A stretch of 64,000 nt of DNA from Candidatus Woesebacteria bacterium (lineage in GTDB: Bacteria; Patescibacteriota; Microgenomatia; UBA8517): positions 854,508 to 918,507 of the forward strand of contig OY970314.1 in the NCBI GenBank assembly GCA_963716475.1, written 5' to 3'. Below the pieces are notes generated by a model. The model had not been told where the DNA came from. It was given only the letters and a program-made list of their open reading frames with translations, and searched no databases. This document shows positions 6,899 to 64,000 of the stretch, piece by piece. The position numbers and the translations under genes are program-made. Numbering within the stretch: the first letter of the stretch is position 1; each line of letters opens with the position of its first letter.

Positions 6899-6899
6899 T

Positions 6900-15833: not shown

Positions 15834-15863
15834 CTTGCGTAATATCTGGAGGTCTCGCAATTT

Positions 15864-16523: not shown

Positions 16524-17011
16524 ACCGTGAGTTTTCTTCGGGTGGGGCCGTCTTCAGGGGTGATGAATGGTTGATAACAAGATCGTCTGCAAGCAAACTC
16601 TATCCTAAAGCAATTTGGAGACTTCCGAAAGGTTGGATCGATAATGTTACACCTGAAATTCCCGGACCAATGGCAAGCGGAAAGCTGAGGGCTGATGAAG
16701 AGTCGCTGCAAAAAGGTGCCCTGCGGGAAGTGAGAGAAGAAGGAGGAATTGAAGCTAAGATTGTTAAAAAGATCGGAACAGCGAAGTATTTTTTTAACGC
16801 GCCCGATAAAGGTAGAATCTTAAAGTTTGTTACATTTTATTTAATGGAATATGTAGGTGATTTACCGGAGGGTTATGATGAAGAAACATCCGAGATCGCC
16901 TGGTTGCCATTTGAAGAAGCCTATAAAAAACTTTCTTTCTCGGGTGAAAAGCAAATACTCAAAAAAGCGAAAGAACTTCTGGCCCCCGTAGCTCAACGGA
17001 TAAGCAAATAG
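16490..17011 (+). CDS. Nudix hydrolase
   Basis: Nudix box EESLQKGALREVREEGGI. The last ~9 codons (APVAQRISK*) are encoded by a tRNA-like 5' fragment. Confidence 0.65.
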   Translation: MGKNAQNQTILNREFSSGGAVFRGDEWLITRSSASKLYPKAIWRLPKGWIDNVTPEIPGPMASGKLRADEESLQKGALREVREEGGIEAKIVKKIGTAKYFFNAPDKGRILKFVTFYLMEYVGDLPEGYDEETSEIAWLPFEEAYKKLSFSGEKQILKKAKELLAPVAQRISK

Positions 17012-17047
17012 CTTGTCGGTTGTTCTACAGGTGCTCATTAGAAATTC

Positions 17048-17119
17048 GCCCCCGTAGCTCAACGGATAGAGTAGGAGTTTCCGGAACTTCTGATAGGTGT
17101 TCAATTCACCTCGGGGGCA
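17048..17119 (+). tRNA. tRNA-Arg (anticodon CCG)
   Basis: GCCCCCGTAGCTCAACGGATAGAGTAGGAGTTTCCGGAACTTCTGATAGGTGTTCAATTCACCTCGGGGGCA. Its first 21 nt are duplicated at about 16982-17002. Confidence 0.8.
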
Positions 17120-17243
17120 CACTCGGTACAGAATCAGTTATAATACAATTTCTGGAGGAGTCACATAAGTAAACTTCGCCCAATGGCGTAAGTCTACTCT
17201 TTGCTTTGCAAAGAGATCTTGGGTGACTTTTCTTTAAAATCTG

Positions 17244-17325
17244 GAGGAGTCACCTAGCGGCTATGGTACGCGCTTGGAAAGCGCGCGGGCGTAAGCCCTC
17301 GCGGGTTCGAGTCCCGCCTCCTCCG
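17244..17325 (+). tRNA. tRNA-Ser (anticodon GGA)
   Basis: GGAGGAGTCACCTAGCGGCTATGGTACGCGCTTGGAAAGCGCGCGGGCGTAAGCCCTCGCGGGTTCGAGTCCCGCCTCCTCCG. Long variable arm. Its 5' end (TCTGGAGGAGTCAC) is duplicated at about 17147-17161. Confidence 0.8.
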
Positions 17326-18039: not shown

Positions 18040-19548
18040 ATGAAGAACCCAAAATATTTTAAATATGCTTTCTATTTAATAATCGGCCTATTTGTGTTTT
18101 ATAGGGCGCTGTCTTTTCTGGATCCGGACTTCGGCTGGCATTTGACCATGGGGAACCTGATATTAAAGTCAGGGATTCCGAAAACCGACCCTTTTTCCTA
18201 TACAATGCCCTCTTTTCCTTTTATCGAGTATGAGTGGCTGGTCGACGTTGTCCTTGCAAAAATGTATCCGATCCTCGGCTTAGCCGGAATATCAATATTG
18301 TTTTCGGTCCTTTTTTTGTCGGCGGTTCTTGTTTCCGTATCCAAATCAAAAAAATTTAAGATCACACTTTTCATTATTGGAATTTCCTCAATGATTCCGT
18401 TTTTTTCAGTTTCACCGAAGATTTTTTCCTGGTTACTGCTTTCGATATTTACTTTTGCTGTATTAAATGAAACCTTTTGGGAAAAATATTGGCTGCTCAC
18501 TCCATTAATAATTATTTTATGGGCAAATTTACACGGGAGCTTTCCCGAAGCTTTAGTCATTCTGCTGGTTATTTTAATTTGTAAAAGTTTCAGGGAAAAA
18601 CGTATTTGGGTGAAAGGGCTACTGGTAACGTTTTTAAGTTTTTTGGCTACCATGGTTAACCCTTACGGACTTAAACTTTGGTCGCTTGTTTGGGTGACCA
18701 TTTCTAACCCCGTTCTTAAGTACAGAATTGAGGAATGGCAGCCAACATATTTGAATTTGTTCGCATTCTCTTTTCTGGCCATTTTTTTATTTACAATCTC
18801 CCTGGTCTTTATTTCCAGATATTGGCGTAGGTTTAGGACAGAGGAAATACTTTTGAACTTTATATTTTTTATTCAGGCAATTCTTGCCGTTAGAATGATT
18901 CCTTACTGGGTTCTAATTGATCTGCCAATGATTGCGGTGGCGATAGAATACTTTGCCGGAGAGATAGCAGGAAGCAGGATCGGGAAAAAAAGATTTCTGA
19001 TTTTTTCCAAGGCTGCACTTCTCTTCGTCGGTATCGGTTTTGTTTCTCAGTGTCTCATTAATGCCTTTCTTTATTCAAATTCCCATAAGGAGGACCTTTT
19101 TTATCCTAAAAAGGCCGTTTTGTATTTGAAAGAGAACCTTCCGAAAGGCCAACTTTTTTCCGAATACAATTGGGGAGGATATCTGATTTGGAAACTGCCG
19201 GAAAAGAAAGTTTTTATCAGCGGAATGATGCCTGTTTGGAAATGGCAGGCGGACGTCCCCGGCGAATCAAACGATGCGATGACCGACTATCTTGATATGT
19301 CAGAAGGTAAAATTTCGTATCAGGTAGTTTTTAATAAATACAAAATAGACACAGCTTTATTGTCGATGCCGGAAGATCCCGGGCCGATAATCAAATTCTC
19401 TGAAAAATTTGCGTCTTTTCTAGGAATTCCGACAAGCGTTAATGCAAAAAGCCTGCTATATGGTGAGCTGGAAAAAGACGGTTGGACGCAATTGTATAAA
19501 GATAACTCTTCAGTTATTTTAAAAAGTCCTCACCCCGAAAACCTTTGA
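18040..19548 (+). CDS. Polytopic membrane protein (~11 TM) with C-terminal extracytoplasmic domain; possible GT-C-type glycosyltransferase or polymerase
   Basis: 502 aa, very hydrophobic N-terminal 370 aa, soluble C-terminal ~130 aa. No definitive motif. Confidence 0.3.
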   Translation: MKNPKYFKYAFYLIIGLFVFYRALSFLDPDFGWHLTMGNLILKSGIPKTDPFSYTMPSFPFIEYEWLVDVVLAKMYPILGLAGISILFSVLFLSAVLVSVSKSKKFKITLFIIGISSMIPFFSVSPKIFSWLLLSIFTFAVLNETFWEKYWLLTPLIIILWANLHGSFPEALVILLVILICKSFREKRIWVKGLLVTFLSFLATMVNPYGLKLWSLVWVTISNPVLKYRIEEWQPTYLNLFAFSFLAIFLFTISLVFISRYWRRFRTEEILLNFIFFIQAILAVRMIPYWVLIDLPMIAVAIEYFAGEIAGSRIGKKRFLIFSKAALLFVGIGFVSQCLINAFLYSNSHKEDLFYPKKAVLYLKENLPKGQLFSEYNWGGYLIWKLPEKKVFISGMMPVWKWQADVPGESNDAMTDYLDMSEGKISYQVVFNKYKIDTALLSMPEDPGPIIKFSEKFASFLGIPTSVNAKSLLYGELEKDGWTQLYKDNSSVILKSPHPENL

Positions 19549-25968: not shown

Positions 25969-26041
25969 TTCCCCGGTAGCTCAGCGGTAGAGCGGATTCC
26001 TGTTAAGAATAAGGTCGCTGGTCCGAATCCAGCCCGGGGAG
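25969..26041 (+). tRNA. tRNA-Asn (anticodon GTT)
   Basis: TCCCCGGTAGCTCAGCGGTAGAGCGGATTCCTGTTAAGAATAAGGTCGCTGGTCCGAATCCAGCCCGGGGAG. U1-A72, as in bacterial tRNA-Asn. Confidence 0.8.
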
Positions 26042-38489: not shown

Positions 38490-38963
38490 TTACGGTTTGG
38501 CCAGGTGCCAAATTCCGCCGACCCCGTCACCGTTAAGATCTCCTACCAGAGTATCCCCTGTATAGTAATAAAGAGGCATGCCTTTATAGGTGAATTGGAT
38601 GGATCCGTCCGACTTGGTGATTGTTGCGATCCCCGTAGGCAGAGTCGCCGGTACCGACGCGGTTACGTAAGGAGGCCAGAGTCCTGCACACGATCCGGAA
38701 CAATTACTGACTCCAGTCGTATCCTTGTCGAAGATGTAAAGCGTCATTCCGCTGGCTCCGGTAAGATAGTTACCTTTTGCCCCGGACTGAGTTGTTATTA
38801 TACTGCTCCCGGCTCTGGGTGTGGTTACCGGGGTAGCGCTGGTGTAGGTCGGCGCCGAGCTTGTTCCGTAGTTCCCAGAATACAATCCGGCCTTCTTCAA
38901 ACCCATGTAGCCAAGAACCAACACGATAACTATTACCGCTACCCAAATCCAAGTTTTTTTCAT
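38490..38963 (-). CDS. Secreted lipoprotein-like protein with CxGxCAxxWPP repeat (COG4315 family)
   Basis: NCSGSCAGLWPPY and tandem YxFxxD-type repeats (LYIFDKDTTG, LYYYTGDTLVGD). Confidence 0.6.
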   Translation of the reverse strand: MKKTWIWVAVIVIVLVLGYMGLKKAGLYSGNYGTSSAPTYTSATPVTTPRAGSSIITTQSGAKGNYLTGASGMTLYIFDKDTTGVSNCSGSCAGLWPPYVTASVPATLPTGIATITKSDGSIQFTYKGMPLYYYTGDTLVGDLNGDGVGGIWHLAKP

Positions 38964-39075: not shown

Positions 39076-39627
39076 CTACTTTTTATAAACCAGAGCGAGC
39101 CTTTTACCTTGAAGGAGCCTCTTGACGAATTCATATCCGCCGAAAAATGCTCCGGAGTAGAAGAGATCCCCCAGAAGAGTGTTTCTGAAGAACGGAATTG
39201 CATATAAATAAGACTCAAAAATACCGGAAATGTTTTTCGGATACATATTTGTAAATGCCCAGACCGCAAAGTTGGTTATTACAAAGAAAAGCACGGAAGA
39301 GAGAATCGAGGCCAGAATGATGTTTTTTGGACTTTTGTGGTTCTTGATCCAGAATCCGATAAGGATGGCTAAAAGAAAACTTCCGTAAACGCTGAGTCTC
39401 ATCGGGATTGAATCAAACCCTATAAAGAAGTCGGAGAGGATCATTGCTGCAATAGGCAAGGTCAAAGCCTGTCTTTTATTTAGATAAACACCCCCGAAAA
39501 GTGCCATGGCGGTGATTGGGGTAAAATTTGCGGGATGGGGAATCAGCCGAGACAATGCCCCGATAACAATAAAGCCTGCCGGTTGGGCAAGTTTAGTAAT
39601 TACTGATTTTCCATTGAATTTCATCAT
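39076..39627 (-). CDS. ECF-transporter S component-like membrane protein (possibly the cobalamin-specific CbrT type)
   Basis: 183 aa, about 6 TM, the size and topology of ECF substrate-capture subunits. Co-operonic with a DUF4430-like secreted protein. Confidence 0.35.
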   Translation of the reverse strand: MMKFNGKSVITKLAQPAGFIVIGALSRLIPHPANFTPITAMALFGGVYLNKRQALTLPIAAMILSDFFIGFDSIPMRLSVYGSFLLAILIGFWIKNHKSPKNIILASILSSVLFFVITNFAVWAFTNMYPKNISGIFESYLYAIPFFRNTLLGDLFYSGAFFGGYEFVKRLLQGKRLALVYKK

Positions 39628-39997
39628 TGTTTTGTATTATATAACTTCCCGCACCCACTTGGGCCTCAGATCCGTTAACATCTAGTTCCCAAAACTCGTG
39701 CTTTGTAGCGTCCGCTTCACGCCCGTTTATGGATACTATGTAGGCATTCGTTCCTGTTCCGTTTGTGATCACTTTCGCCTCGGATTCTGTTGCTTCGAGC
39801 GCGGACTTGCCCACGAAACCCGATATGTCAAAAGACTGTGGGTTTACATCATTGATTTTTAGGATGGCGGAGACTTTTTGAGCAGCTTTCTCACCTTGAG
39901 TCTTGGCAGCGGGACCGCTTACACTAGTCCGCCAAATGATAAATCCGAGGGTAAAAATTACGACTACTGGAAGAATTAATTTTAAATATTTTTTCAT
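39593..39997 (-). CDS. Secreted DUF4430-like protein (transcobalamin-like cobalamin-binding fold candidate)
   Basis: 134 aa, signal peptide. The C-terminus (AYIVSINGREADATKHEFWELDVNGSEAQVGAGSYIIQNNDEIQWKISNY) resembles DUF4430. Confidence 0.35.
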   Translation of the reverse strand: MKKYLKLILPVVVIFTLGFIIWRTSVSGPAAKTQGEKAAQKVSAILKINDVNPQSFDISGFVGKSALEATESEAKVITNGTGTNAYIVSINGREADATKHEFWELDVNGSEAQVGAGSYIIQNNDEIQWKISNY

Positions 39998-39999
39998 AT

Positions 40000-40125
40000 T
40001 CCTGCTCGGGTTTTAGGTTGGGTTCCGGGTTTACGGTAGCGGCACTCCCACGGAAACTCTCCGTGATTCACCAATAACAAGTAATTTACTTTCAAACATC
40101 ATACTGGTCAAGTGGTAATATTAAT
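40000..40125 (-). promoter_or_regulatory. Candidate cobalamin riboswitch in the 5' leader of the DUF4430/ECF-S operon
   Basis: Minus-strand leader reads ...GGTGAATCACGGAGAGTTTCCGTGGGAGTGCCGCTACCGTAAACCCGGAACCCAACC... It has GGUGAA, a CCGCUACCGUAA block resembling the conserved CCCGCAACUGUAA core, an AACCCGGAACCC block resembling the B12 box AGCCAGGAGACC, and an internal hairpin CACGGA/TCCGTG. Confidence 0.3.
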
Positions 40126-40130: not shown

Positions 40131-40319
40131 GTGAGTAAATTGAAAATAGACAAGAAAAATAAGGCGAATATTTCGAAATATCTAATCTATGGCGCAGTTC
40201 TGGCGGTACTTCTTTCGGTTACGGGTTGGCTGGGCGCAGATATCTGGCTGGCCTCAACTCAGTGGCTTTTGGTGGCTGCAGTGCTAACGCTTTTTGGAAT
40301 ATACCTTAAGTTAAGTTGA
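40131..40319 (+). CDS. Small membrane protein (2 TM)
   Basis: 62-aa hydrophobic ORF. Confidence 0.3.
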   Translation: MSKLKIDKKNKANISKYLIYGAVLAVLLSVTGWLGADIWLASTQWLLVAAVLTLFGIYLKLS

Positions 40320-52285: not shown

Positions 52286-52951
52286 GTGAAGAAACTTTCA
52301 TCACCTTTTGACTTAATTAAAAAAGCAGTTGATATCTTTGTAAAAAAGGAAAATCTTCTTTTTCTGGTCAAAATTTACATACCGGTAGCGGTTTTTTCTG
52401 TAATATCCATTGCCCAGTCATTTTTACCCTCCTCAATTAAAGATTCAAACTCGATCTGGCTGACAGTCGTGGTAGGGATACTTCAAATACTTTCTCTTCT
52501 AACGGGCGTATTTGTTACCGTGTCGGGGATAATTGCCTTGGGGAAGATTGCGGACGGTGGTGAATTGTCACAGGAAAAGACTTACAAAGCTGCCTGGAAA
52601 AAATACTGGGTGTTACTACTTTTAGGAATTGTTCTTAGTTTTGCTTATTTAATCGGTTTTATACTCCTTATTATCCCGGGGATTCTCTTTGTCGTCTGGT
52701 TTGCCTTTAGCCGGTTTTTGGCGGTTGAAAGGGGCTTGGGCATTAAGGAGGCATTATTGAAAAGCAAGGAACTGGTAAAAGGAGCTTACTGGAAAATACT
52801 CGGAAGACTTATCGTTTTTGGTGCTTTTACAGCAATTGTCGAAGTGGTTTTAAGTGCACTCCCTTACGGTGTGGGGTCAATTTTGGCGAGTCTTGGCGGA
52901 GGACTTTTTATGCTTCCTTCGTATCTTCTATATAGGGAACTTAGCGCCTAA
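52286..52951 (+). CDS. Hypothetical polytopic membrane protein
   Basis: 221 aa, about 6 TM. Confidence 0.4.
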   Translation: MKKLSSPFDLIKKAVDIFVKKENLLFLVKIYIPVAVFSVISIAQSFLPSSIKDSNSIWLTVVVGILQILSLLTGVFVTVSGIIALGKIADGGELSQEKTYKAAWKKYWVLLLLGIVLSFAYLIGFILLIIPGILFVVWFAFSRFLAVERGLGIKEALLKSKELVKGAYWKILGRLIVFGAFTAIVEVVLSALPYGVGSILASLGGGLFMLPSYLLYRELSA

Positions 52952-55250
52952 GCTTTGTTGAAGCTCCATTTGGAAGGATCGGATTGGGATTTGAGATAGG
53001 TGACGGAGAAGGCACGGGTTGGCAATAATTTGGCAGAATATCTTCCTTCAGGAACCACTCACTCTTGCCCGGACAATTAATCTTTACTACTCCATCAGGC
53101 ACCTTCCAATCAATGGAGGGTTTATCGTTTAGGATCGCCGACATAATTTTATTCCAAATGGGGGAGGCCCCAGTCACCCCCGAGGCAATACGGCTCATGG
53201 GTGAGTTGTCGTTATTGCCGACCCATGTAACTACGAGATAATCCTGGTTATATCCGGCAGTCCAGTTATCCCTTAAATCATTACTGGTTCCAGTTTTAAC
53301 GGCGACTTCGGGGTGATTCTTAATAACCAGATAGGAATTAAACCCAAATTCCGGGGCGCGGGCGTTATTGTCTTTCAAGATATCAGTCAGAATAAAAGCA
53401 ACTCTGGGATCGATGGTTTCGGTAGTTACGGGAGTGTTTTTTTCCAAAACCCTGCCCTTATAGTCTTTTACCGACAGAATTGGAAGTAGGTCAGGGCGCT
53501 TGCCGTAATTTGCTACCGTCGAGTAAACTTTCGATAAATCGAGCGCTGTAACGGCACCTCCGCCAAGAGTTAGTGACAAGCCATAATTGGAAGGATCTGT
53601 CCAAGTCGTAATCCCCATTTTTTGTCCCTGATCGACCATTTTGGTAACACCATATGAAGCTAATACTTTGACTGCCGGTATATTGCGGCTTTGGGCTAGT
53701 GCACTTCTGAGGGGAATTGGCCCTCTATATTGACCGTCATAATTGACAGGCGTATACGGTGTTGTACCGGGAGTTACATATGTAATCGGAGAATCGTCAA
53801 TTATAGTCGCAGGAGTGTAACCATTTGCGAGAGCGTAAGCATAATTAACCACTTTAATGGATGAGCCGGGTTGCCTGACGCTTGTGGTTACATTAACGTT
53901 TCCGTCTTCCGCGATGTCAAAATAATTTTTTGATCCGACCATGGCTAGAATTTCGCCGGTCTGTGGGGCAACCACAAGGGCATCACCATTTCCCACATGT
54001 AGCCCTTGAAGTTTTGCGACTTCGGATTGGACAACCTGCTCGGCAGTTTCCTGTATGGGAAGGTCGAGACTTGTGGTGACTTCCAATCCTCCCTTTTCAA
54101 CCATATCCTCGCCGTATTTATCGACCAAAAGCTGTCTAACATACATGACAAAATGAGGGGCTTTTATAGCGGTTTTATTAGCTATAAAAGTTAATTTTTC
54201 GTTTGCTGCCGTTTTTTCCTGTTCGGCGGTGATAAATTTATTAATCTCCATTAGGTGTAATACTTCTTTCTGCCTTTCTATTGCAAGATCGGGACTTGAA
54301 CCGAATGGGGAATATGTAGTCGGACTTTTGGGTAGACCCGCAAGAAGTGCAGCTTCTGCCAAATCGAGGCTTTTCACATCTTTCCCAAAATATGATTCTG
54401 AGGCTTCCTGAATTCCATATGCGGTTCCTCCGTAACTTACTTCATTAAGATACATTTCCAAAATTTGGTCTTTGGTATAATTTGCCTCGACCTCAACGGA
54501 TAAAACCAATTCCTTGATCTTGCGGGTTATTGTTTTTTCCGGGGTAAGAAGGGTGTTTTTAACGAGCTGCTGAGTTATGGTGGAGCCGCCCTGGACGGAT
54601 CCTGTTTGCAGGTCTTGAATAAAGGCCCTGAAAATTCCCTTAATGGAAAATCCCGGGTGTGAATAAAATTCAGCATCCTCGGCGGCGAGGGTGGCTAGCC
54701 TGACATGTATCGGAATTTGTGTCAGGGGAACAATGCTTCGATTTTGGTCTTTATAGATTTTATATAGGAGATTGCCGTTTCTGTCGTAGATTTTGGTGGA
54801 AACTTCCGGTTGTCTCGCCTCAAGTTCTTTGGGGGAGGGAAGACCCTTGAAAATGGCAAAATAAGAATAAAAGATTAAGGAACCGACTACCAAAGTTATG
54901 ACAATTAGCCTAAAACCAACCTTAATTCGGAGTTCTTGTAAACGGGTGAGTTTTTTGAGGAAGAATTTTTTAAATTTAGATAAAATTTTCAGCTCAAATA
55001 GAGAGATTTTGAGTTTTTCAAGTTTTAATGACGGTTGAATTTTAGGCAGTCGGAGTTTGGGAAGAGTTATGGTCGGAAATTTTATTTTGGGAAGGCCAAA
55101 ATATTTATAGACAATCTTTGTTTTTTTTCGCTTTTTACTGGTTTGGCCGACCACATAGAGGAATAAAGTCACACCGAGGGTCAATCGGGACAGGATAAAA
55201 TAAATTGGCTTGCCGGTTAAGATCAATACACGCTTGATAGCTTTGATCAT
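52941..55250 (-). CDS. Class A penicillin-binding protein (PBP1A-type transglycosylase/transpeptidase)
   Basis: GT51 motifs EDAEFYSHPGF and GGSTITQQLVKN. Transpeptidase SxxK in RQPGSSIKV. 769 aa. Confidence 0.85.
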   Translation of the reverse strand: MIKAIKRVLILTGKPIYFILSRLTLGVTLFLYVVGQTSKKRKKTKIVYKYFGLPKIKFPTITLPKLRLPKIQPSLKLEKLKISLFELKILSKFKKFFLKKLTRLQELRIKVGFRLIVITLVVGSLIFYSYFAIFKGLPSPKELEARQPEVSTKIYDRNGNLLYKIYKDQNRSIVPLTQIPIHVRLATLAAEDAEFYSHPGFSIKGIFRAFIQDLQTGSVQGGSTITQQLVKNTLLTPEKTITRKIKELVLSVEVEANYTKDQILEMYLNEVSYGGTAYGIQEASESYFGKDVKSLDLAEAALLAGLPKSPTTYSPFGSSPDLAIERQKEVLHLMEINKFITAEQEKTAANEKLTFIANKTAIKAPHFVMYVRQLLVDKYGEDMVEKGGLEVTTSLDLPIQETAEQVVQSEVAKLQGLHVGNGDALVVAPQTGEILAMVGSKNYFDIAEDGNVNVTTSVRQPGSSIKVVNYAYALANGYTPATIIDDSPITYVTPGTTPYTPVNYDGQYRGPIPLRSALAQSRNIPAVKVLASYGVTKMVDQGQKMGITTWTDPSNYGLSLTLGGGAVTALDLSKVYSTVANYGKRPDLLPILSVKDYKGRVLEKNTPVTTETIDPRVAFILTDILKDNNARAPEFGFNSYLVIKNHPEVAVKTGTSNDLRDNWTAGYNQDYLVVTWVGNNDNSPMSRIASGVTGASPIWNKIMSAILNDKPSIDWKVPDGVVKINCPGKSEWFLKEDILPNYCQPVPSPSPISNPNPILPNGASTKLRR

Positions 55251-55297
55251 TTAGCTGCGAATTGTAGCAGTAAACCAGGGGGAAAGACAGCCTAAAG

Positions 55298-57520
55298 CTA
55301 AAGGAGCGGATACTTAATGGTTGCGGAAGATGAAGCAATCGGGCATGTCAGACAATAAAGAGTTCCGTCGGGGTCGGTGTATGTAGGTTTGTTTTCTGTA
55401 TGAACTTGGTCGGGGGGGTCGGTTGGTGCCGCAAGCTGGCCCGTAGCATTATTTATTTGGACATCTTGATTAACAATATTTGACGTAGTCGGAACGGTCC
55501 CTGCTAAAAAATATTCAAACCTTATCGGGCACCCGGGGTTACCCGGATCTTGAGACGGAGGGGCTCCTCCCGTATCGGAACAAATTGTAGCTCCCACTAC
55601 CCCGTCCGGCTGTTTCGGCCAGGCGTGCCCCTTTTCGGCTGTGTCATATACCCCCTTTTCGGCCTTATCAAGAACCGCTTTCATTATTTTGTTCCAAATT
55701 GGGGATGCCCCCGAAACTCCCGAAACCGCTCCGCTCATTGGGGTGTTGTCGTTATTTCCAACCCAGGTAACAACTACCGCATCTGCGGTATAGCCGACTG
55801 TCCAGTTATCGCGTCTGTCATTTGTGGTTCCTGTTTTAACCGAGACCTCGGGGTGCCCCGAAACATTTAAGTAAGAAGAAGCACCAAAAGCTGCACCTCT
55901 GGCGTTATTATCCAAAAGTATATGAGAAATTAAAAATGTGACGGTGGGGTCGAGGACTCTGGTACCGGTAAGTGTGTTTTTGGTCGGATCGTATTGCTCG
56001 AGGGTATTTCCTTTCCAGTCCGTAACTTTGGTTATAGCAGTTAGTGGCTGCTCGATCCCCTGATTTGCAAAAACCCCAAACGCAACCGCCATGTCATATG
56101 GCCTGACAAGAAGGCCTCCCAGAGTTGCCGAAAGTCCGTAGTCTTTGGGATCGGTCAGGGTTGTTATTCCCATTTGTTTTGCAAAGGCGATAAAGTTGTC
56201 GACTCCATTTAGTGCCAAGACTTTGACGGCGGGAATATTGTAGGAATTTCCCAGGGCAAATCTCGCCTCGACTAGTCCGTGGAAAGTACCGTCGTAGTTT
56301 ACAGGGCAATATGTCGGTTGCCCGACGACGTCGAAACAGGTAGGTACGTCGGCAAGGGCAGTCGCGGGTGTAATTTTTTGGTCCTTAAGAGCGAGAGCGT
56401 AATTGAGAGGCTTGATGGAGCTTCCGGGTTGGCGTGAGGATAGAGTCACATTTACTTTTCCGTCCTCATCCGTTGCAAAATAGTCTTTTGAACCGACCAT
56501 TGCCAGGATCTCTCCAGTTCCCGGACGGGTGACGATGGCGGCACCATTTCCGACCTTTTGTTTTTTAAGTTTGCCGACCTCTGTGGCAACTGCCTGTTGA
56601 GCCAGCTTTTGGATATCAAGGTCAAGCGTAGTGTAAACCCTAAGGCCTCCTTGCTCCACCACTTTGTCACCGTATTTATTGGCAAGTTGTTCCTTGATCC
56701 AAAGGGCAAAATGCGGGGCCTGTGGTGGGTTAATTGTTGCGTAGGTCAAAGGTTCCTGATCGGCTTTATCCGCATCGGCCTGGCCAATATATTTATTGGC
56801 AACCATTTGTTTGAGAACCTCTTCCTGGCGGCCCTTTGCCAGTTCTGGGTGGGCACCGAAAGGAGAATAAGTTGACGGCGCCTGAGGGAGCCCGGCCAAC
56901 AGTGCAGACTGGGCGAGATCCAAATCTTTTGTGCTTTTCCCGAAATACGTTTCGCTGGCCGCTTCAATTCCATATGCGGTTCCTCCGTAGGGGATAGTGT
57001 TTAAGTACATCTCTAAAATTTGGTCTTTTCTGTAAACTCCCTCAACAATGATGGTTAGAACCACTTCCTGAGCTTTTCGTCTGATAGTTCTCTCGTTTGT
57101 CAAAAGTGCATTCTTAACCAATTGCTGGGTGATGGTCGAACCTCCTTGAAGCTGGTGCTTAAAGATTGTGTTGAAAAGTGCTCTGGCGATTCCTGTAACG
57201 GAAAATCCCTGGTTCTTGTAAAAATTTTTGTCTTCTATAGATATGGTTGCCTCTTTTAAATATGCCGGCATATCTGTTAGAGAAATGGGCGTTCTTTTTT
57301 TGTCAGTGTATATTTCATAAATCAACTTTCCGTTTCGGTCAAAGATTTTTGTAGAAACAGGCAAAGTCTCCGATGTAAGCCGTGTGGGCAGGGGAATTCC
57401 CCAAAAAAGGTAAACCCCGACGATTAGAATAACTCCCCAATAAATCAGGCCCTTAATTCCCTTTTTGGTTGTAAAAAGAGATTTGAGTTTGGGTTTAGTT
57501 CCGGAAAATGCCTTTTTCAT
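55298..57520 (-). CDS. Class A penicillin-binding protein (second PBP1A-type paralog)
   Basis: EDKNFYKNQGF, GGSTITQQLVKN, RQPGSSIKP. 740 aa with a Pro-rich C-terminal tail. Confidence 0.85.
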   Translation of the reverse strand: MKKAFSGTKPKLKSLFTTKKGIKGLIYWGVILIVGVYLFWGIPLPTRLTSETLPVSTKIFDRNGKLIYEIYTDKKRTPISLTDMPAYLKEATISIEDKNFYKNQGFSVTGIARALFNTIFKHQLQGGSTITQQLVKNALLTNERTIRRKAQEVVLTIIVEGVYRKDQILEMYLNTIPYGGTAYGIEAASETYFGKSTKDLDLAQSALLAGLPQAPSTYSPFGAHPELAKGRQEEVLKQMVANKYIGQADADKADQEPLTYATINPPQAPHFALWIKEQLANKYGDKVVEQGGLRVYTTLDLDIQKLAQQAVATEVGKLKKQKVGNGAAIVTRPGTGEILAMVGSKDYFATDEDGKVNVTLSSRQPGSSIKPLNYALALKDQKITPATALADVPTCFDVVGQPTYCPVNYDGTFHGLVEARFALGNSYNIPAVKVLALNGVDNFIAFAKQMGITTLTDPKDYGLSATLGGLLVRPYDMAVAFGVFANQGIEQPLTAITKVTDWKGNTLEQYDPTKNTLTGTRVLDPTVTFLISHILLDNNARGAAFGASSYLNVSGHPEVSVKTGTTNDRRDNWTVGYTADAVVVTWVGNNDNTPMSGAVSGVSGASPIWNKIMKAVLDKAEKGVYDTAEKGHAWPKQPDGVVGATICSDTGGAPPSQDPGNPGCPIRFEYFLAGTVPTTSNIVNQDVQINNATGQLAAPTDPPDQVHTENKPTYTDPDGTLYCLTCPIASSSATIKYPLL

Positions 57521-60200: not shown

Positions 60201-62645
60201 ATGGAAGCACAAACGGTTAAGATAAATAAGAAGGTTAAAGGTAAAAAATTTGTTTACAAAAACGGTGAAACAAAGATTTCTATAGACGATCTTCTCGCCC
60301 CGTCATACGAAAAGATAATTTTGGAGATAAGGAGAAAGGTCGGAAAAAGACCACAAATTCCTGCTGAACTTCCTAAAGGTGAATGGACGGAACAGTCTTT
60401 ACAAGTTTTGAATGAAAGATATTTAATGAAAGATGAGAGCCTTAAGCCTATCGAAGACCCGGAGGGTATGTGCTGGAGAGTTGCGTGGGAGGTAGCATCA
60501 GCCGAGGCGCGGTGGGGTGCGACAAAGAAGGATGTAAATGCGTGTGCCACAAATTTTTATAAACTTCTGATTTCACATCAGTTTTTACCAAACTCTCCAA
60601 CGCTTATGAATGCCGGTACGGGAAACGGCCTTCAATATTCCGGTTGTTTTGTTTTGCCTGTAGATGATTCGCTTGTTGGAATTTTCGATGCTGTGAAATA
60701 TACAGCCCTAATACATCAGACCGGCGGAGGAACGGGCTTTTCATTTTCAAGAATAAGACCTAATGGGTCTATCGTCAGATCGAGTCATGGAACGGCATCA
60801 GGTCCGGTTTCCTTTATGAGAGTATTTGATGCCGCCACAAATGAAATCAAGCAGGGCGGCAAAAGAAGGGGTGCCAACATGGGGATACTTCGCGTTGACC
60901 ACCCCGATATTATAGAGTTTATTCATTGCAAAGAAGAAGGTGGTATAACCAACTTTAATATATCGGTCGGTATTACGGATCCTTTTATGGAAGCTTACTT
61001 TAAGGATGAGGACTATAGTTTAATTAATCCCAAAACCAAGGAGGTTACAGGTGTTCTTTCTGCCAGACACGTGTTTGACGAGATTGCAGACGGGGCTTGG
61101 AGAACGGGCGACCCCGGACTTATTTTCATCGATAGAATAAATGCCGGTCCGGCAAATCCGATCCCGGTACTAGGGCCTGTTGAAGCAACCAATCCATGCG
61201 GAGAACAGCCGCTTTACCCCTATGATTCGTGTAATTTAGGAAGTATTTTTTTGGGGAATTTTGTGAAGAACGGGAAGATTGATTGGAAGAACCTGGGTGA
61301 AGTTACCCGGCTTGCAATCAGATTTCTTGATGATGTTATCGAAGTAAACCCCTATCCGATGGAGCAAATTAGAAGGATTGTTTTTAACACAAGAAGAATC
61401 GGGCTTGGGGTAGGTGGGTGGAGCGACATGCTTATTGAACTTGGCCTTCCTTTCGACAGTACCGAAGCCCTTACGCTGGCAGAGAAAATAATGAAATTTA
61501 TTCAGGACGAAGCTTTAGATGAAGACAGATTGTTAGCTAAAAAACGCGGACCATTTCCACTCTTTCCGATATCAATTTATCGGGAAGGTGCACCCCGTAG
61601 AAACTCCGCAATTACAACTATTGCGCCAACCGGATCTATTTCTATTATCGCCGGGGCAAGTAGCGGTATCGAACCTATGTTTGCAATCGCTTACAGACAC
61701 ATCGTTAAGGACAAGAGTCTTGATAGAAAAATGTCATTTATCAATCCTCAATTCGAGAAAGTGGCCAGAAAGAGGGGATTCTGGTCCGAAGAACTAATGG
61801 CTAAAGTTGCAGAAAAAGGAGTTATAAGAGATATAGATGAAATTCCGGAAGACGTTAGAAGAACTTTTGGAACAGCTCATGAAATAGATATTGATTGGCA
61901 TATTAAAACACAATCAGCATTTCAAAAATACACAGAGAACGCCGTAAGTAAAACGATAAACTTAAGACATGACGCAACAGTGGATGATGTTAAGAAAGCA
62001 TATCTTATGGCTTGGGAAAGTAACTGCAAGGGCATTACGATTTTTAGGGATGGAAGTAAAAGTGAGCAGGTGCTGAATATGGGTGTAAACGATAAAACAA
62101 AGGTAAGTGACGCGCCCGGGGAGACACAACTTATATTGGATAGACCAATGAGAGTAGACGGAGCCACATATAAAATTATTACTCCTCTAGGAAGTGCATT
62201 TATTACTGTTAACCAAGACTCTGAGGGTAATCCTTTTGAGGTTTTTATAACCATAGGAAAAGCTGGTAGTGAGGTTGCGGCAATGGCAGAAGCCCTTGGA
62301 AGAATGATTTCGACTACGCTCAGGTTTGGGAACCATCTTCCACCCCGTGAACGGGCAAGAGAGATTGTTGAACAACTCAGGGGCATTGGAGGGAGCCGTT
62401 CAGTCGGGTTTGGTCCCAATAAAATAAGATCCCTGCCGGATGCCGTTGCCAAGGCGCTCTCTCTTCATTTTGGATTTGAGAATAATGGGAATAATAAGAT
62501 ACCCGAACCGATTCAGGTCGAGAAAGCTCTTGTGGAGGAGGAAGCGAAAAAGATTGGCGACATATGTCCTTCCTGTGGTTCTCCTGCCCTGGTTTACGAG
62601 GAGGGTTGTGCCAAGTGCCACGCCTGCGGGCATTCTGAGTGCTAA
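60201..62645 (+). CDS. nrdJ: Ribonucleotide reductase, class II (adenosylcobalamin-dependent)
   Basis: 814 aa. NSPTLMNAGTGNGLQYSGCFVL active-site region, NPCGEQPLYPYDSCNLGSI, and a C-terminal zinc ribbon CPSCGS...CAKCHACGHSEC. Confidence 0.85.
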   Translation: MEAQTVKINKKVKGKKFVYKNGETKISIDDLLAPSYEKIILEIRRKVGKRPQIPAELPKGEWTEQSLQVLNERYLMKDESLKPIEDPEGMCWRVAWEVASAEARWGATKKDVNACATNFYKLLISHQFLPNSPTLMNAGTGNGLQYSGCFVLPVDDSLVGIFDAVKYTALIHQTGGGTGFSFSRIRPNGSIVRSSHGTASGPVSFMRVFDAATNEIKQGGKRRGANMGILRVDHPDIIEFIHCKEEGGITNFNISVGITDPFMEAYFKDEDYSLINPKTKEVTGVLSARHVFDEIADGAWRTGDPGLIFIDRINAGPANPIPVLGPVEATNPCGEQPLYPYDSCNLGSIFLGNFVKNGKIDWKNLGEVTRLAIRFLDDVIEVNPYPMEQIRRIVFNTRRIGLGVGGWSDMLIELGLPFDSTEALTLAEKIMKFIQDEALDEDRLLAKKRGPFPLFPISIYREGAPRRNSAITTIAPTGSISIIAGASSGIEPMFAIAYRHIVKDKSLDRKMSFINPQFEKVARKRGFWSEELMAKVAEKGVIRDIDEIPEDVRRTFGTAHEIDIDWHIKTQSAFQKYTENAVSKTINLRHDATVDDVKKAYLMAWESNCKGITIFRDGSKSEQVLNMGVNDKTKVSDAPGETQLILDRPMRVDGATYKIITPLGSAFITVNQDSEGNPFEVFITIGKAGSEVAAMAEALGRMISTTLRFGNHLPPRERAREIVEQLRGIGGSRSVGFGPNKIRSLPDAVAKALSLHFGFENNGNNKIPEPIQVEKALVEEEAKKIGDICPSCGSPALVYEEGCAKCHACGHSEC

Positions 62646-62661: not shown

Positions 62662-64000
62662 ATGGGATCTTTGCGTCTAAAAAAAGTAGTTAAAGCTGAT
62701 GGATCTGAAGAGGAATTTCTTCCCGGAAAAATCTCCAAAGGGATTTGGTATGCGGCTCAAAATGTTGGGGGAACAGATGAGTCATTGCCACTTAAACTTG
62801 CTGATGAAGTAGTAAGTCTTCTCGAATCGAAATTAAACGGTGAAACCAAATTGCCAAGCTTTGTGATTGGAGAAGCTGTTGAAAAGGTTTTGATTGAGAG
62901 TGGCCATGCAAAAACCGCTAAAGCATTTATTATTTATAGGGAAAACAAGAAACATCTTAGGCAAGATAAATCTTCACTCGGGGTGATTGACGACATTGGC
63001 TTTTCCTATAACACACTCTATATTTTGAAACAAAGATATCTAAAAAGGAACGAAAAAGGGGAGACCACCGAGACACCCAAACAAATGATCTCGAGAATCG
63101 CAAAATATTTAGCCGGTGTAGAGAAAACTTCCGCAAAAAGGAATAAATATTTCAAGGAGTTTTATAATCTTATGATCAATTTCGATTTTCTTCCCGGTAC
63201 GAGAACAATCACCAATGCCGGTAAATCTAAAGCTCAACTGGCTAACTGTTTTGTCTGGCCGATAGCAGATGACATTAACGAAATTTTCAACATTCTTCAT
63301 AAATCGACAGTGATAAAAAAGAACGGGGGAGGATGCGGATACAACTTCTCTAATATCCGACCGGAGGGAGATAGTGTTAACGGGGTTCCCGATCTTGCTG
63401 CGGGTCCTATCAAAATGATTGAAATGTTTGATTTAATGACGTCTCTTTTCCGTCAGGAGGGTAAATATGAATCAGGGAATATGGCGATACTTAACGTGGA
63501 CCATCCGGATATCTTTAATTTCATCTCTGCAAAACAAACGGACGGTTATTTGAGCAAAACCAATATCTCGGTCGGAATAACGGATGAATTTATGGAAGCA
63601 GCAGTAAAAGGTGCGGATTGGAATTTAATTAACCCCAGAACCAAAGAAGTTGTAAATACCGTAAATGCCAAATCGATCCTGGACCTAATGGCTACAATGG
63701 CCTGGCAAACAGGGGATCCCGGAATAATTAACCTTAGTGCCATGAATCGTGGCACGGCCCACGCCAACCCCCTTCTTAAAAAAGAAGGTCCTATTTCTGC
63801 AACCAATCCTTGCGGGGAAGTTCCGCTATATCCTTATGAATCTTGTAATTTGGGATATGTGAATTTTGTTAAATTCGTGAGTGGCCAAAAATTTGATCTC
63901 CAAAGATTGTCAGAGGTGGTAAAAATTGCCGTAAGACTGATGGATAACGTTATTGATGCCTCATGGTTTCCGGTTCCTGAAGTAGATGAATCGGTTCGAA
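62662..64000 (+). CDS. Second class II ribonucleotide reductase paralog with N-terminal ATP-cone (runs off the window end)
   Basis: Not in the ORF track, because there is no stop before the window end. Frame from ATG 62662 encodes MGSLRLKKVVKADGSEEEF... (ATP-cone) then LPGTRTITNAGKSKAQLANCFVWPIADDINEI...NPCGEVPLYPYESCNLGYVNF, paralleling nrdJ. Confidence 0.7.
   Translation, partial: MGSLRLKKVVKADGSEEEFLPGKISKGIWYAAQNVGGTDESLPLKLADEVVSLLESKLNGETKLPSFVIGEAVEKVLIESGHAKTAKAFIIYRENKKHLRQDKSSLGVIDDIGFSYNTLYILKQRYLKRNEKGETTETPKQMISRIAKYLAGVEKTSAKRNKYFKEFYNLMINFDFLPGTRTITNAGKSKAQLANCFVWPIADDINEIFNILHKSTVIKKNGGGCGYNFSNIRPEGDSVNGVPDLAAGPIKMIEMFDLMTSLFRQEGKYESGNMAILNVDHPDIFNFISAKQTDGYLSKTNISVGITDEFMEAAVKGADWNLINPRTKEVVNTVNAKSILDLMATMAWQTGDPGIINLSAMNRGTAHANPLLKKEGPISATNPCGEVPLYPYESCNLGYVNFVKFVSGQKFDLQRLSEVVKIAVRLMDNVIDASWFPVPEVDESVR

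What the first reader, a model, noticed from the sequence alone, without database searches (positions are those of the whole stretch)
39076..40125. Candidate cobalamin riboswitch + DUF4430-like binding protein + ECF S-component: a B12-scavenging module
The minus-strand leader upstream of the DUF4430-like gene contains GGUGAA, a CCGCUACCGUAAA block resembling the CCCGCAACUGUAA core, a degenerate B12 box (AACCCGGAACCC vs AGCCAGGAGACC) and an internal hairpin. The operon encodes a secreted DUF4430-like protein and a ~6-TM ECF S-component-like protein. DUF4430 has been described as a transcobalamin-like domain, and CbrT is the ECF S-component that takes up cobalamin. The window also encodes two AdoCbl-dependent class II RNRs and no visible B12 biosynthesis genes. 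That fits an organism that must import B12 to make dNTPs.
Basis: partly seen in the sequence, partly recalled or inferred. Interest (0 to 1): 0.6.

Follow-up and report, generated by a model that had tools for sequence, protein, structure and literature searches.

The report
B12 riboswitch controlling B12-uptake operon
A small vitamin-B12-sensing RNA switch sits in front of two genes, a membrane-anchored B12-binding protein resembling part of human transcobalamin and a small transporter-like membrane protein, in a tiny-genome (CPR) bacterium that needs B12 to make DNA building blocks; the parts are of known kinds, but this transporter pair has never been tested experimentally.

Summary
The minus-strand leader (about 40013-40080) is a cobalamin riboswitch aptamer of the compact class II type (Rfam RF01689), not RF00174. 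It scores below Rfam's cut-off (26.0 vs 36.5 bits). A model built only from relatives' leaders scores it 64.7 bits, as the only hit in the window. Syntenic leaders in relatives pass Rfam's cut-off, and the helices covary. The low Rfam score fits a conserved promoter placed so that the RNA starts at the inner P1 helix, without the outer P1 and J1/3 loop.

The first gene (39593-39997) encodes a membrane-anchored DUF4430 protein. Its model matches only the cobalamin-binding beta-domains of transcobalamin, haptocorrin and intrinsic factor. The second gene (39076-39627) encodes a DUF6580 protein with an ECF S-component fold and remote homology to the B12 S-component CbrT.

Across 80 DUF6580 loci, 41 have a same-strand cobalamin riboswitch upstream. 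Operon partners include PduO adenosyltransferase and TonB-dependent receptors. No ECF ATPase or T component is linked. The window also carries two class II (B12-dependent) RNR genes. The most likely function is a B12-repressed corrinoid uptake module. Its energy coupling is unknown.

The parts
40083..40111 (-). Sigma-70-type promoter: -35 TTGACC (40111-40106), 17-nt spacer, -10 TAAATT (40088-40083). The inferred transcription start is near 40077.
   Evidence: The consensus scan finds it (9 of 12 matches). On its own that is not above chance. However, CACTTGACN, a variable spacer of about 17 nt, then GTAAATT is conserved upstream of 32 of 42 distinct related leaders, with the spacer sequence free to vary. 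The start site is inferred, not measured.
40013..40080 (-). Class II cobalamin riboswitch aptamer. P1: UUGG 40074-40071 with CCAA 40021-40018, possibly extended to UUA/UAA across a CC bulge. P4 hairpin: 40065-40049. P5/L5: AGU-GCC-GCU, 40046-40038. P6: CCG-UAAACC-CGG, 40036-40025.
   Evidence: Rfam RF01689, 40011-40083, 26.0 bits, full-length alignment. Clade model R1, 40006-40094, 64.7 bits, E about 3e-15. Covariation in P4, P5 and P6. Two deviations at conserved positions, both in loop L4 (U to A at 40060 and A to U at 40055); L084 shares them.
39995..40010 (-). Expression platform: conserved box CCCGAGCAGG (40010-40001) containing the Shine-Dalgarno AGGA, three nt upstream of the AUG (39997-39995). 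No terminator lies between the aptamer and the AUG.
   Evidence: A CGAGC box follows 12 of the 14 compact aptamers listed from the genome loci, 13 of 15 with the window. In 42 of 42 metagenomic leaders the box lies 0-6 nt from an ATG that was not part of the search pattern. No terminator-like site occurs there. Its role as the L13 kissing-loop partner is inferred by analogy with env8 (PMC5028336).
39593..39997 (-). DUF4430 protein, 134 aa: an N-terminal transmembrane or signal-anchor helix (residues 3-25), a linker, and an extracytoplasmic domain with the transcobalamin beta-domain fold. Predicted corrinoid-binding protein.
   Evidence: PF14478, E=2.4e-17. PDB hit to TCN1 residues 383-431, E=0.0085 with the single sequence and 1.2e-5 with the profile. 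AF2 model pLDDT 83.3. The top 19 Foldseek hits are TC, haptocorrin or IF beta-domains, or 3U7Z.
39076..39627 (-). DUF6580 membrane protein, 183 aa (182 if translation starts at 39624), with an S-component-like helical fold. Predicted corrinoid transporter. Its start overlaps the end of the DUF4430 gene by about 32-35 nt.
   Evidence: PF20221, E=1.3e-53, with sub-threshold ECF S-component hits. AF2 model pLDDT 83.7. Foldseek: TmRibU TM 0.59/0.64 at probability 0.99, plus PanT, ThiT and FolT. Profile hit to CbrT (6fnp_A) at 0.035. hhalign against the CbrT family: 80.4%, E=1.3e-5.
60201..62645 (+). Context: class II (adenosylcobalamin-dependent) ribonucleotide reductase NrdJ, a B12-consuming enzyme.
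   Evidence: NF006417, 1013 bits against a cut-off of 961; TIGR02504, 685 bits against 400. Pfam barrel, all-alpha and TSCPD domains.
63001..64000 (+). Context: second NrdJ paralog, cut off by the window end.
   Evidence: tblastn 42% identity to the first NrdJ. Its best NCBIfam hits are B12-dependent RNR models; it is below the cut-offs only because it is truncated.

Best explanation
This is a vitamin-B12 (corrinoid)-repressed uptake operon in a Woesebacteria-like CPR bacterium.

A promoter at 40111-40083 should start the mRNA directly at a minimal class II cobalamin aptamer (about 40080-40013). When intracellular cobalamin is sufficient, the ligand-bound aptamer is expected to dock the downstream CCCGAGCAGG/Shine-Dalgarno box against loop L5. 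This is the kissing-loop mechanism known for class II switches, and it would block ribosome loading at the AUG three nt away. When B12 is scarce, both genes are translated, and the overlapping reading frames suggest translational coupling.

The first product is a membrane-anchored, outward-facing protein with the cobalamin-binding beta-domain fold of transcobalamin; it would capture corrinoid at the cell surface. The second is a small S-component-fold membrane protein, remotely related to the B12 S-component CbrT; it would move the corrinoid across the membrane. Imported B12 would serve the two adenosylcobalamin-dependent ribonucleotide reductases encoded 20 kb away.

Shown here: RNA family membership by model score and covariation; both protein folds and families; the conserved genomic association with B12 genes. 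Inferred: ligand binding, translational repression through the kissing loop, the transcription start, the substrate, and the hand-off from binder to transporter. Unknown: whether transport needs an ECF ATPase module encoded elsewhere or is module-independent, as for BtuM.
For: RNA. There is a full-length alignment to RF01689. The independent clade model gives 64.7 bits and is the sole hit in the window. All 54 hits in the window and 80 loci lie on the operon strand. Covariation over 54 sequences is 0.491 against 0.125 for shuffles and at most 0.151 for slid controls. Over the 42 distinct window-type leaders it is 0.251 against 0.116, with 95% of cells paired. Orthologous leaders pass Rfam's cut-off, including the syntenic L001.

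Platform. The CGAGC(A)GG box abuts the AUG, and there is no terminator. The literature places the RBS in L13 and describes a cobalamin-stabilised L5-L13 kissing loop for this class (PMC5028336).

Proteins. PDB entry 5NP4, the isolated transcobalamin beta-domain bound to cyanocobalamin, is among the fold matches.

Context. In 41 of 80 DUF6580 loci a same-strand riboswitch hit lies upstream. 20 of these lie 381-771 nt upstream, the spacing of a leader placed ahead of DUF4430-DUF6580; in L008 the hit lies 47 nt ahead of DUF6580 itself. Operon partners are PduO-type adenosyltransferase (7 loci; PF01923 8.8e-56, TIGR00636), TonB-dependent receptors in Ignavibacteria and Bacteroidota, and large alpha-toroid + DUF4430 proteins. 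NrdJ is present twice in the window.
Against: The window's aptamer is 10.5 bits below Rfam's gathering score.

Its P1 is only 4 contiguous pairs. Its L4 T-loop has the conserved U...A closing positions swapped to A...U; only one other sequence, L084, shows this, and its effect on folding is unknown.

Minimum-free-energy folding of the leader is no better than shuffled sequence (z=0.41).

The kissing-loop partner could not be confirmed by covariation, because L5 (GCC) and the box are nearly invariant.

For DUF6580, the Foldseek E-values are weak (0.5-5) although the TM scores are 0.53-0.59. The Pfam ECF models are below their cut-offs. The hhalign match covers only the N-terminal half.

No binding or transport data exist for either family, and no paper mentions DUF6580.

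Solitary CbrT does not support B12-dependent growth without its ECF module (PMC5997447). A CbrT-like protein may therefore need partners that were not found here.
Confidence: 0.8

Rival explanations
1. The leader is a decaying, non-functional remnant of a cobalamin riboswitch, and the operon is expressed constitutively.
For: The Rfam score is below the cut-off. P1 is short. Two substitutions fall at positions that are 91-92% conserved in the L4 T-loop. The close relative L002 has lost the GGUGAA motif (GCCAAA instead) and did not pass Rfam's gathering score.
Against: Every other core position that is at least 85% conserved is intact. The two L4 changes are a paired swap (U..A to A..U) at the T-loop's position 1/5 closing pair, not independent hits, and they recur in L084. 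The literature notes that other closing pairs are accepted in T-loops (PMC6158498). The window scores mid-range (64.7 bits) among 42 distinct leaders of the same subclade (59-82 bits). The promoter, aptamer, box and AUG spacing are all conserved.
Confidence: 0.12
2. The operon imports or handles something other than complete cobalamin, for example cobalt, cobinamide or another corrinoid precursor, or the lower ligand. B12 riboswitches also control CbiMNQ-type cobalt S-components and precursor-salvage transporters.
For: S-component folds carry many substrates. ECF-CbrT also transports cobinamide (PMC5997447). The substrate has not been tested for DUF6580 or for bacterial DUF4430. The 3U7Z entry is annotated 'putative metal binding protein'.
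Against: The partner protein has the fold that binds whole cobalamin in TC, HC and IF. Operon neighbours in relatives are PduO adenosyltransferase and BtuB-like TonB receptors, not cobalt or cbi genes. No cob/cbi genes were seen in the window. From general knowledge, CPR genomes generally lack corrin synthesis, which would make a cobalt importer pointless. Cobinamide or other corrinoids remain compatible with the main explanation, which says 'corrinoid'.
Confidence: 0.1
3. DUF6580 is a conventional group II ECF S-component that works only with a shared EcfAA'T module encoded elsewhere in the genome. This is a variant of the main explanation that concerns energy coupling.
For: There is remote homology to CbrT. 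CbrT alone is inactive without its ECF module. Group II S-components are typically unlinked to their module (established knowledge; Rodionov et al. 2009).
Against: Only one ABC-ATPase motif occurs in 586 kb around 80 DUF6580 genes, and none occurs in the 64-kb window. In diderm relatives the gene sits after a TonB-dependent receptor under a riboswitch, which is the btuB-btuM arrangement of module-less organisms (PMC6072759). The Pfam ECF models are below their cut-offs. None of this excludes a distant module.
Confidence: 0.35

Closest known systems
Class II (AdoCbl-variant, Cbl-IIa) cobalamin riboswitch, e.g. env8 (Rfam RF01689; PDB 4FRG/4FRN)
   Same: It has the same compact four-way-junction aptamer without the large P6 extension, and the same conserved J3/4, L5 and J6/3 core. 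The RBS lies immediately 3' of the aptamer, consistent with translational control through the L5-L13 kissing loop.
   Different: It scores below Rfam's cut-off. The transcript appears to start at the inner helix, so the outer P1 and the J1/3 T-loop, a selectivity determinant in env8, are absent. The literature says some Cbl-II members, such as the E. faecalis example, also lack J1/3. The L4 T-loop closing pair is swapped. The linker to the box is only about 7 nt, and the box has its own conserved sequence, CCCGAGCAGG.
ECF-CbrT vitamin B12 transporter of Lactobacillus delbrueckii (PDB 6FNP)
   Same: Both are small membrane proteins of about 180 aa with the S-component fold. Shared N-terminal motifs are R..PN(F/V)xP and S(D/N)xx(I/L)GF. 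hhalign gives 80%, E=1.3e-5, and 6fnp_A is the only PDB sequence hit of the DUF6580 profile.
   Different: It belongs to a different Pfam family (PF20221, not PF12822/PF07155). Homology is detectable only over helices 1-3. No ECF module is linked. It is paired with an extracytoplasmic DUF4430 binding protein, whereas the S-component of an ECF transporter binds the substrate itself (PMC6072759).
BtuM (Thiobacillus denitrificans), a solitary S-component-like B12 transporter (PDB 6FFV)
   Same: Both are small S-component-fold proteins predicted from B12 genomic context. In diderm relatives the gene follows a BtuB-like TonB-dependent receptor. No ECF module is linked.
   Different: BtuM's invariant cobalt-ligating cysteine is absent: the window protein has no cysteine, and there is no invariant Cys among 29 homologs. 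No sequence similarity to the BtuM structure entry was found at E up to 10. The entry code 6FFV is recalled from memory and was not checked in the paper.
Beta-domain of eukaryotic cobalamin carriers (transcobalamin, haptocorrin, intrinsic factor), and the bacterial DUF4430 structure 3U7Z
   Same: Same fold (Foldseek probability 1.00, rmsd 2.1-2.5 A for the best local alignments of about 100 columns) and detectable sequence similarity to TCN1 residues 383-431.
   Different: It consists of the beta-domain only, tethered by an N-terminal membrane helix, with no alpha6/alpha6 barrel domain. In some other CPR loci a separate or fused alpha-toroid domain accompanies DUF4430 (L009 1112-2926).
BtuFCD, the classical B12 ABC importer with a substrate-binding protein
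   Same: The functional logic is the same: an extracytoplasmic binding protein plus a membrane transporter, under B12 riboswitch control in many bacteria (established knowledge).
   Different: The folds of both components are unrelated, and no ATPase is encoded in the operon.

Membership tests
Rfam RF01689 AdoCbl-II riboswitch | Score at or above the curated gathering threshold (36.5 bits) | tested here: not met
   The window scores 26.0 bits, E=7e-4 for the local search. The syntenic ortholog L001 scores 41.5 bits, and L003, L004, L006, L010 and L067 also pass.
Rfam RF01689 AdoCbl-II riboswitch | Junction helices P3(P1)/P4/P5/P6 supported by covariation, and a conserved core sequence | tested here: met
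   P4, P5 and P6 are 94-100% paired, with double changes: 12 of 16 pairs in A6 and 9 of 16 in A8. Both are well above the shuffled and slid controls. The window matches every core column that is at least 85% conserved, except two in L4.
Rfam RF01689 AdoCbl-II riboswitch | L4 T-loop with the conserved U...A closing pair (drives global folding through L4-L6) | tested here: inconclusive
   The window has A...U at these two positions, where the family has U in 92% and A in 91% of sequences. L084 has the same swap. T-loops can accept other closing pairs (PMC6158498).
Rfam RF01689 AdoCbl-II riboswitch | Outer P1 helix and J1/3 internal loop | tested here: not met
   The cmscan alignment marks non-canonical outer P1 pairs. 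The sequence in that place is a conserved -10 element (GTAAATT) 17 nt after TTGACC.
Rfam RF01689 AdoCbl-II riboswitch | Cobalamin binding, and an L5-L13 kissing loop that sequesters the RBS | not testable with these tools
   The box CCCGAGCAGG, which contains the SD, lies 3 nt from the AUG. The pairing partner is invariant, so no covariation test was possible.
Rfam RF00174 Cobalamin (class I) riboswitch | A match to the model, including the P6 extension and B12 box | tested here: not met
   No RF00174 match was reported, even at E up to 10. The overlapping clan member RF01689 is the best match.
Pfam PF14478 DUF4430 (transcobalamin beta-domain-like) | Score above the gathering threshold, and the beta-domain fold | tested here: met
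   63.6 bits against 23.8. Foldseek top 19 are TC/HC/IF beta-domains or 3U7Z, E about 1e-6.
Eukaryotic transcobalamin/IF/haptocorrin family (full-length) | An alpha6/alpha6 barrel alpha-domain in addition to the beta-domain | tested here: not met
   The 134-aa protein has only a transmembrane helix plus the beta-domain. Matches cover only residues about 383-431 of TCN1.
Pfam PF20221 DUF6580 | Score above the gathering threshold | tested here: met
   182 bits against 27, covering profile positions 6-157 of 162.
ECF transporter S-component (PF12822 / PF07155; CbrT family) | Pfam score above the gathering threshold | tested here: not met
   PF07155: 22.6 against 26.7. PF12822: 20.4 against 30.7.
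ECF transporter S-component (PF12822 / PF07155; CbrT family) | Six-helix S-component fold, and homology detectable by profile comparison | tested here: met
   TM 0.53-0.59 to RibU, PanT and ThiT (FolT 0.47); no other fold exceeds TM 0.3. hhalign against the CbrT family gives 80.4%, E=1.3e-5 over 87 columns.
ECF transporter S-component (PF12822 / PF07155; CbrT family) | An EcfA/EcfA'/EcfT energizing module in the same genome | not testable with these tools
   No Walker-A/ABC-signature ORF occurs in the window. Only one occurs in 586 kb around 80 homologs. The rest of the 983-kb genome could not be read.
BtuM family | An invariant cobalt-ligating cysteine (Cys80 in BtuM_Td) | tested here: not met
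   The window protein contains no cysteine. No Cys is among the invariant or near-invariant columns of 29 homologs. The feature is defined in PMC6072759.
BtuM family | Co-localisation with btuB, and absence of an ECF module | tested here: inconclusive
   A TonB-dependent receptor precedes DUF6580 in Ignavibacteria/Bacteroidota loci (L051, L066, L075). In L057 a riboswitch-controlled receptor gene lies downstream of DUF6580. Whether the genomes lack an ECF module was not testable.
Class II ribonucleotide reductase NrdJ (context) | NCBIfam equivalog cut-off | tested here: met
   NF006417: 1013.2 against 961. TIGR02504: 685 against 399.95.

The most novel reading that the evidence does not exclude
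DUF4430 + DUF6580 would be a previously uncharacterised, widespread two-component corrinoid uptake system, and the main one in CPR/Patescibacteria. A membrane-tethered prokaryotic 'mini-transcobalamin' (beta-domain only, or alpha-toroid plus beta in some lineages) captures B12 and hands it to an S-component-fold transporter that works without any ECF ATPase module. It would be a cysteine-free functional analogue of BtuM. It would also place the origin of the animal B12-carrier beta-domain, and possibly of the whole alpha+beta architecture, in bacterial uptake systems.
Probability: 0.35. Interest if true: 0.7.

Novelty: new variant of a known kind. Interest (0 to 1): 0.5.

Why it matters
CPR/Patescibacteria have tiny genomes and depend on other organisms for cofactors, yet how they acquire vitamin B12 has apparently not been described. 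No held paper combines these terms or mentions DUF6580.

The analysis assigns a testable function to two 'domain of unknown function' families. DUF6580 has at least 3,850 database relatives. DUF4430 is the bacterial counterpart of the transcobalamin beta-domain.

It also raises the question of whether S-component-fold proteins can import B12 without an ECF motor, which is still mechanistically unresolved for BtuM and solitary BioY (PMC11109136).

Finally, it shows that a natural minimal class II cobalamin aptamer, starting at the transcription start and lacking J1/3, is common in CPR and is missed by Rfam's threshold. That matters for riboswitch annotation in metagenomes.

If the reading is wrong, the cost is small: this would be an ordinary riboswitch-regulated operon of unknown substrate.

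Tried and rejected
- Rfam at gathering threshold on the whole window found no riboswitch. Only the permissive local search found it.
- Single-sequence MFE folding of the leader was uninformative (z=0.41; the MFE does not reproduce the junction).
- I first read the conserved 5' flank AAAGUAAAUU as the outer P1 strand plus J1/3. I rejected this because it is conserved as sequence at a fixed distance from TTGACC while the 3' flank varies, so it is a promoter -10 element.
- I considered a specific kissing-loop pairing of L5 UGCC with GGAAUA, which includes the start-codon A. I rejected it as not conserved in loci whose box is far from the AUG (L006, L067). Only the GG of the box pairing with the L5 CC remains plausible.
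- The Lipoprotein_15 gene downstream (38490-38963) was considered as part of the module. It was rejected because it is absent from the syntenic relatives L001 and L002.
- The 769-aa and 740-aa ORFs at 52941-57520 were checked as candidate RNRs. They are class A penicillin-binding proteins.
- BtuM membership was rejected because there is no cysteine.
- The look-up of encoding contigs and the listing of cluster members could not retrieve or name the source genome.
- Literature searches for DUF6580, for Patescibacteria + cobalamin + riboswitch, and for CPR + B12 + RNR + transporter returned nothing. A 'transcobalamin-like' search was uninformative.
Full report
**What is there.** On the minus strand, two overlapping ORFs (39593-39997, 134 aa; 39076-39627, 183 aa) follow a 133-nt intergenic leader. 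A conserved 62-aa membrane-protein gene (40131-40319, + strand) runs in the opposite direction. It is 88% identical in the closest relative, L001, so the leader is a true divergent promoter region. The best protein matches are to Candidatus Woesebacteria and other Microgenomates. An identical copy of the first protein lies on a 982,852-bp contig, consistent with a CPR genome.

**The RNA: family membership.** A whole-window Rfam scan at gathering thresholds finds only tmRNA and tRNAs. A permissive scan of the leader alone finds a full-length match (model positions 1-81) to RF01689, the compact class II 'AdoCbl-II' cobalamin aptamer. The match is at 40011-40083(-), with 26.0 bits against a cut-off of 36.5 and E=7e-4. 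No RF00174 match is reported.

I then fetched 80 genomic loci encoding relatives of the membrane protein. In 17 of them scanned with Rfam at gathering threshold:
- The leader ahead of the same gene pair passes RF01689 in L001 (the syntenic closest relative, 41.5 bits), L003, L004, L006, L010 and L067.
- It passes RF00174 in L016 and L072.

A covariance model built from ten such leaders, with the window excluded (A5, R1), scores the window's leader at 64.7 bits (E about 3e-15). It finds nothing else in the 64 kb. All 54 hits in the window and the 80 loci are on the operon strand.

Pair counts on the 54 hits show:
- 83.9% of cells paired, against 63.4% for shuffles.
- A covariation score of 0.491, against 0.125 for shuffles and at most 0.151 for slid registers.
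- Many double changes in the P4, P5 and P6 hairpins.

**The RNA: why Rfam misses it.** A metagenome scan for the window-type core plus downstream box gave 51 loci, which together with the window, L001 and L002 make 42 distinct leaders. All score 59-82 bits with R1. They are 95% paired, and P1 is 85% paired.

Upstream of 32 of the 42 lies CACTTGACN, a spacer of about 17 nt whose sequence varies, and then (A)GTAAATT. The consensus scan finds the same element in the window at 40111-40083. This is a conserved promoter whose -10 element occupies the place where the Rfam model expects the outer P1 strand and the J1/3 loop.

The RNA therefore probably starts near 40077, a few nt before the inner helix UUGG. 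That accounts for the lost Rfam bits, and the cmscan alignment flags exactly those outer pairs as non-canonical. Class II members without J1/3 are known (PMC6158498).

**The RNA: deviations.** Column by column, the window deviates from strongly conserved positions at only two sites, both in loop L4. U (92% of sequences) is replaced by A at 40060, and A (91%) is replaced by U at 40055. These are positions 1 and 5 of the L4 T-loop, which form its closing pair (PMC6158498). The change is a paired swap, and L084 carries it too. I read it as a tolerated variant, but its effect is untested.

**Expression platform.** There is no terminator between the aptamer and the AUG. A box CCCGAGCAGG (40010-40001) contains the Shine-Dalgarno AGGA and ends 3 nt before the AUG.
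- In the genome-derived set, which was not selected for the box, CGAGC follows 12 of the 14 compact aptamers listed, or 13 of 15 with the window.
- In some of those loci it precedes a terminator hairpin instead of an AUG.
- In the metagenomic set the box lies 0-6 nt from an ATG in 42 of 42 leaders, although ATG was not part of the search pattern.

For class II switches the RBS lies in L13 and is sequestered by a cobalamin-stabilised L5-L13 kissing loop (PMC5028336). By analogy, I infer translational repression here. The pairing could not be tested by covariation because both partners are invariant.

**Protein 1: DUF4430.**
- Pfam PF14478, E=2.4e-17.
- The sequence hits the beta-domain of human transcobalamin-1 (haptocorrin) directly, at E=0.0085 with the single sequence and 1.2e-5 with a 28-sequence profile. 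The profile also hits the bacterial DUF4430 structure 3U7Z.
- The AlphaFold model (pLDDT 83.3) has an N-terminal helix (residues 3-25), a disordered linker and a beta-rich domain.
- Its top 19 Foldseek matches are all transcobalamin, haptocorrin or intrinsic factor beta-domains, or 3U7Z (E about 1e-6, rmsd 2.1-2.5 A for the best local alignments). They include the isolated beta-domain bound to cyanocobalamin (5NP4). The next matches are unrelated ubiquitin-like folds at E above 0.02.

There is no alpha-domain, so this is a tethered 'beta-only' binder.

**Protein 2: DUF6580.**
- Pfam PF20221, E=1.3e-53, with sub-threshold hits to the two ECF S-component families PF07155 and PF12822.
- The only PDB hit of the 29-sequence profile is chain A of 6FNP (E=0.035). 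6FNP is the L. delbrueckii ECF-CbrT vitamin B12 transporter (PMC5997447).
- CbrT-family proteins carry PF12822 and PF07155, and one also has a recorded PF20221 hit.
- Profile-profile comparison of the two families gives 80.4% probability, E=1.3e-5, over helices 1-3. The invariant motifs align: R..PN(F/V)xP and S(D/N)xx(I/L)GF.
- For the AlphaFold model (pLDDT 83.7), the only structural matches with TM above 0.5 are S-components (TmRibU 0.59/0.64 at probability 0.99, plus PanT and ThiT; FolT reaches 0.47), although the Foldseek E-values are weak.
- The protein has no cysteine, and the family has no invariant cysteine. It therefore lacks the defining residue of BtuM (PMC6072759).

**Genomic context.** DUF4430 lies immediately upstream of DUF6580 in about 35 of the 80 loci. 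In 41 of the 80, a same-strand riboswitch hit lies upstream of DUF6580. Other genes in these riboswitch-controlled operons are:
- A PduO-type cobalamin adenosyltransferase, directly after DUF6580 in six loci and later in the operon in a seventh.
- A TonB-dependent receptor preceding DUF6580 in Ignavibacteria and Bacteroidota loci.
- 600-750-aa proteins that combine an alpha-toroid (squalene-cyclase/prenyltransferase-like) domain with DUF4430.
- Several families with no annotation.

No ABC ATPase motif occurs in the window, and only one occurs in 586 kb around the 80 homologs. There is thus no dedicated ECF module, although a shared module elsewhere in the genome cannot be excluded. The window itself encodes an NrdJ that passes the equivalog cut-offs (60201-62645) and a second, truncated NrdJ paralog (63001 to the window end). 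No cob/cbi gene was seen among the ORFs scanned.

**Conclusion.** This is a cobalamin riboswitch, of class II and in a minimal form, controlling a two-gene module whose folds and conserved neighbours all point to corrinoid capture and import.
- Shown here: RNA family membership, both protein folds, and the genomic association.
- Not shown: ligand binding, repression, the substrate, and the energy source.

Each part is of a known kind. Neither DUF6580 nor the bacterial DUF4430 proteins have a published function in the literature available here. I rate it a new variant of a known kind, of moderate interest.

Noticed in passing
L081-L131, e.g. L129:5627-5716 followed by a 266-aa ORF; L115, L096, L088, L098, L089: About 28 of the 42 distinct window-type riboswitch leaders precede an uncharacterised cytoplasmic protein family, not DUF4430. 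Members are 230-330 aa, often start MSYAEAPEKTVLRF, and carry the motifs KETNREPDTY and WISP. The C-terminus is zinc-ribbon-like: WHxGxCxxCG..VGPCxICKxCE in most, a different CxxC cluster in some. There is no Pfam or PDB match, and the family is absent from the window. B12-repressed expression suggests a B12-sparing or B12-processing role.
   Followed up: partly
L026:5064-5153 (riboswitch), 5223-6497 and 6548-7138. The same layout occurs in L011, L024 and L033; in L017 and L004 the second riboswitch and the 431-432-aa gene are present, but no family-4 gene was found after them.: In several relatives a second cobalamin riboswitch lies downstream of DUF6580, separated from it by the PduO gene in L026, L024, L017 and L004. 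It controls an unannotated 424-474-aa protein, usually followed by a 145-232-aa protein, with no Pfam or NCBIfam hits. The larger one is distantly related to the family in the previous item (31% identity over 358 aa to the L099 protein).
   Followed up: partly
L009:1112-2926 (604 aa). A second protein, L059:1713-3953 (746 aa), has only the alpha-toroid hit; DUF4430 there is a separate 195-aa protein at L059:1120-1707.: In other CPR lineages the riboswitch-controlled operon encodes a large protein that combines an alpha-alpha toroid (SQHop_cyclase/prenyltransferase-like) domain with DUF4430. This is the two-domain architecture of eukaryotic transcobalamin. It points to a bacterial origin, or a bacterial analogue, of the whole carrier.
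   Followed up: partly
window 39575-39591 (-): A terminator-like hairpin (CTTGCC-CAACC-GGCAGG followed by CTTTATTGTT) lies just after the DUF4430 stop codon, inside the 5' end of the DUF6580 coding region. It could set a higher binder-to-transporter ratio, but one such site is within chance expectation (2.2 expected).
   Followed up: no
window 38490-38963 (-): A secreted protein with Lipoprotein_15 repeats (PF03640, E=9e-28) lies 112 nt downstream of DUF6580. It is absent from the syntenic relatives L001 and L002, so it is a local insertion and not part of the module.
   Followed up: yes
window 40131-40319 (+): A divergently transcribed 62-aa two-helix membrane protein with a GTG start. It is conserved in L001 (88%) and L002 (77%), so it is a real small gene, of unknown function.
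   Followed up: partly
window 60201-62645 and 63001-64000 (+): Two tandem NrdJ (class II RNR) paralogs, only 42% identical to each other. No riboswitch precedes them. Two B12-dependent RNRs in a genome of about 1 Mb is unusual.
   Followed up: partly
window 52941-55250 and 55298-57520 (-): Two tandem class A penicillin-binding proteins (transglycosylase plus transpeptidase).
   Followed up: no
window 239-1930 and 1966-4935 (-); also 11106-13001 and 18040-19548 (+): Large ORFs (563, 989, 631 and 502 aa) with no Pfam match at E up to 1e-5. Such large orphan proteins are typical of CPR genomes.
   Followed up: no
window 13457-13822 (+); tRNAs at 14980-17325 and 25970-26041: tmRNA (141.5 bits) and a cluster of seven tRNA genes. 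Nothing is unusual about them.
   Followed up: no
L003, L005, L011, L017, L024, L026 and others (record titles): Many loci that carry this typical CPR operon, with 50-60% identical proteins, come from bins labelled 'uncultured Gammaproteobacteria', 'Nanoarchaeia archaeon' or 'Actinomycetes'. These are probably mislabelled or contaminated bins.
   Followed up: no
L002:3495-3583: A close relative's leader has GCCAAA in place of the conserved GGUGAA (J3/4) and does not pass Rfam's cut-off. It may be a genuinely decaying copy of the same riboswitch.
   Followed up: no
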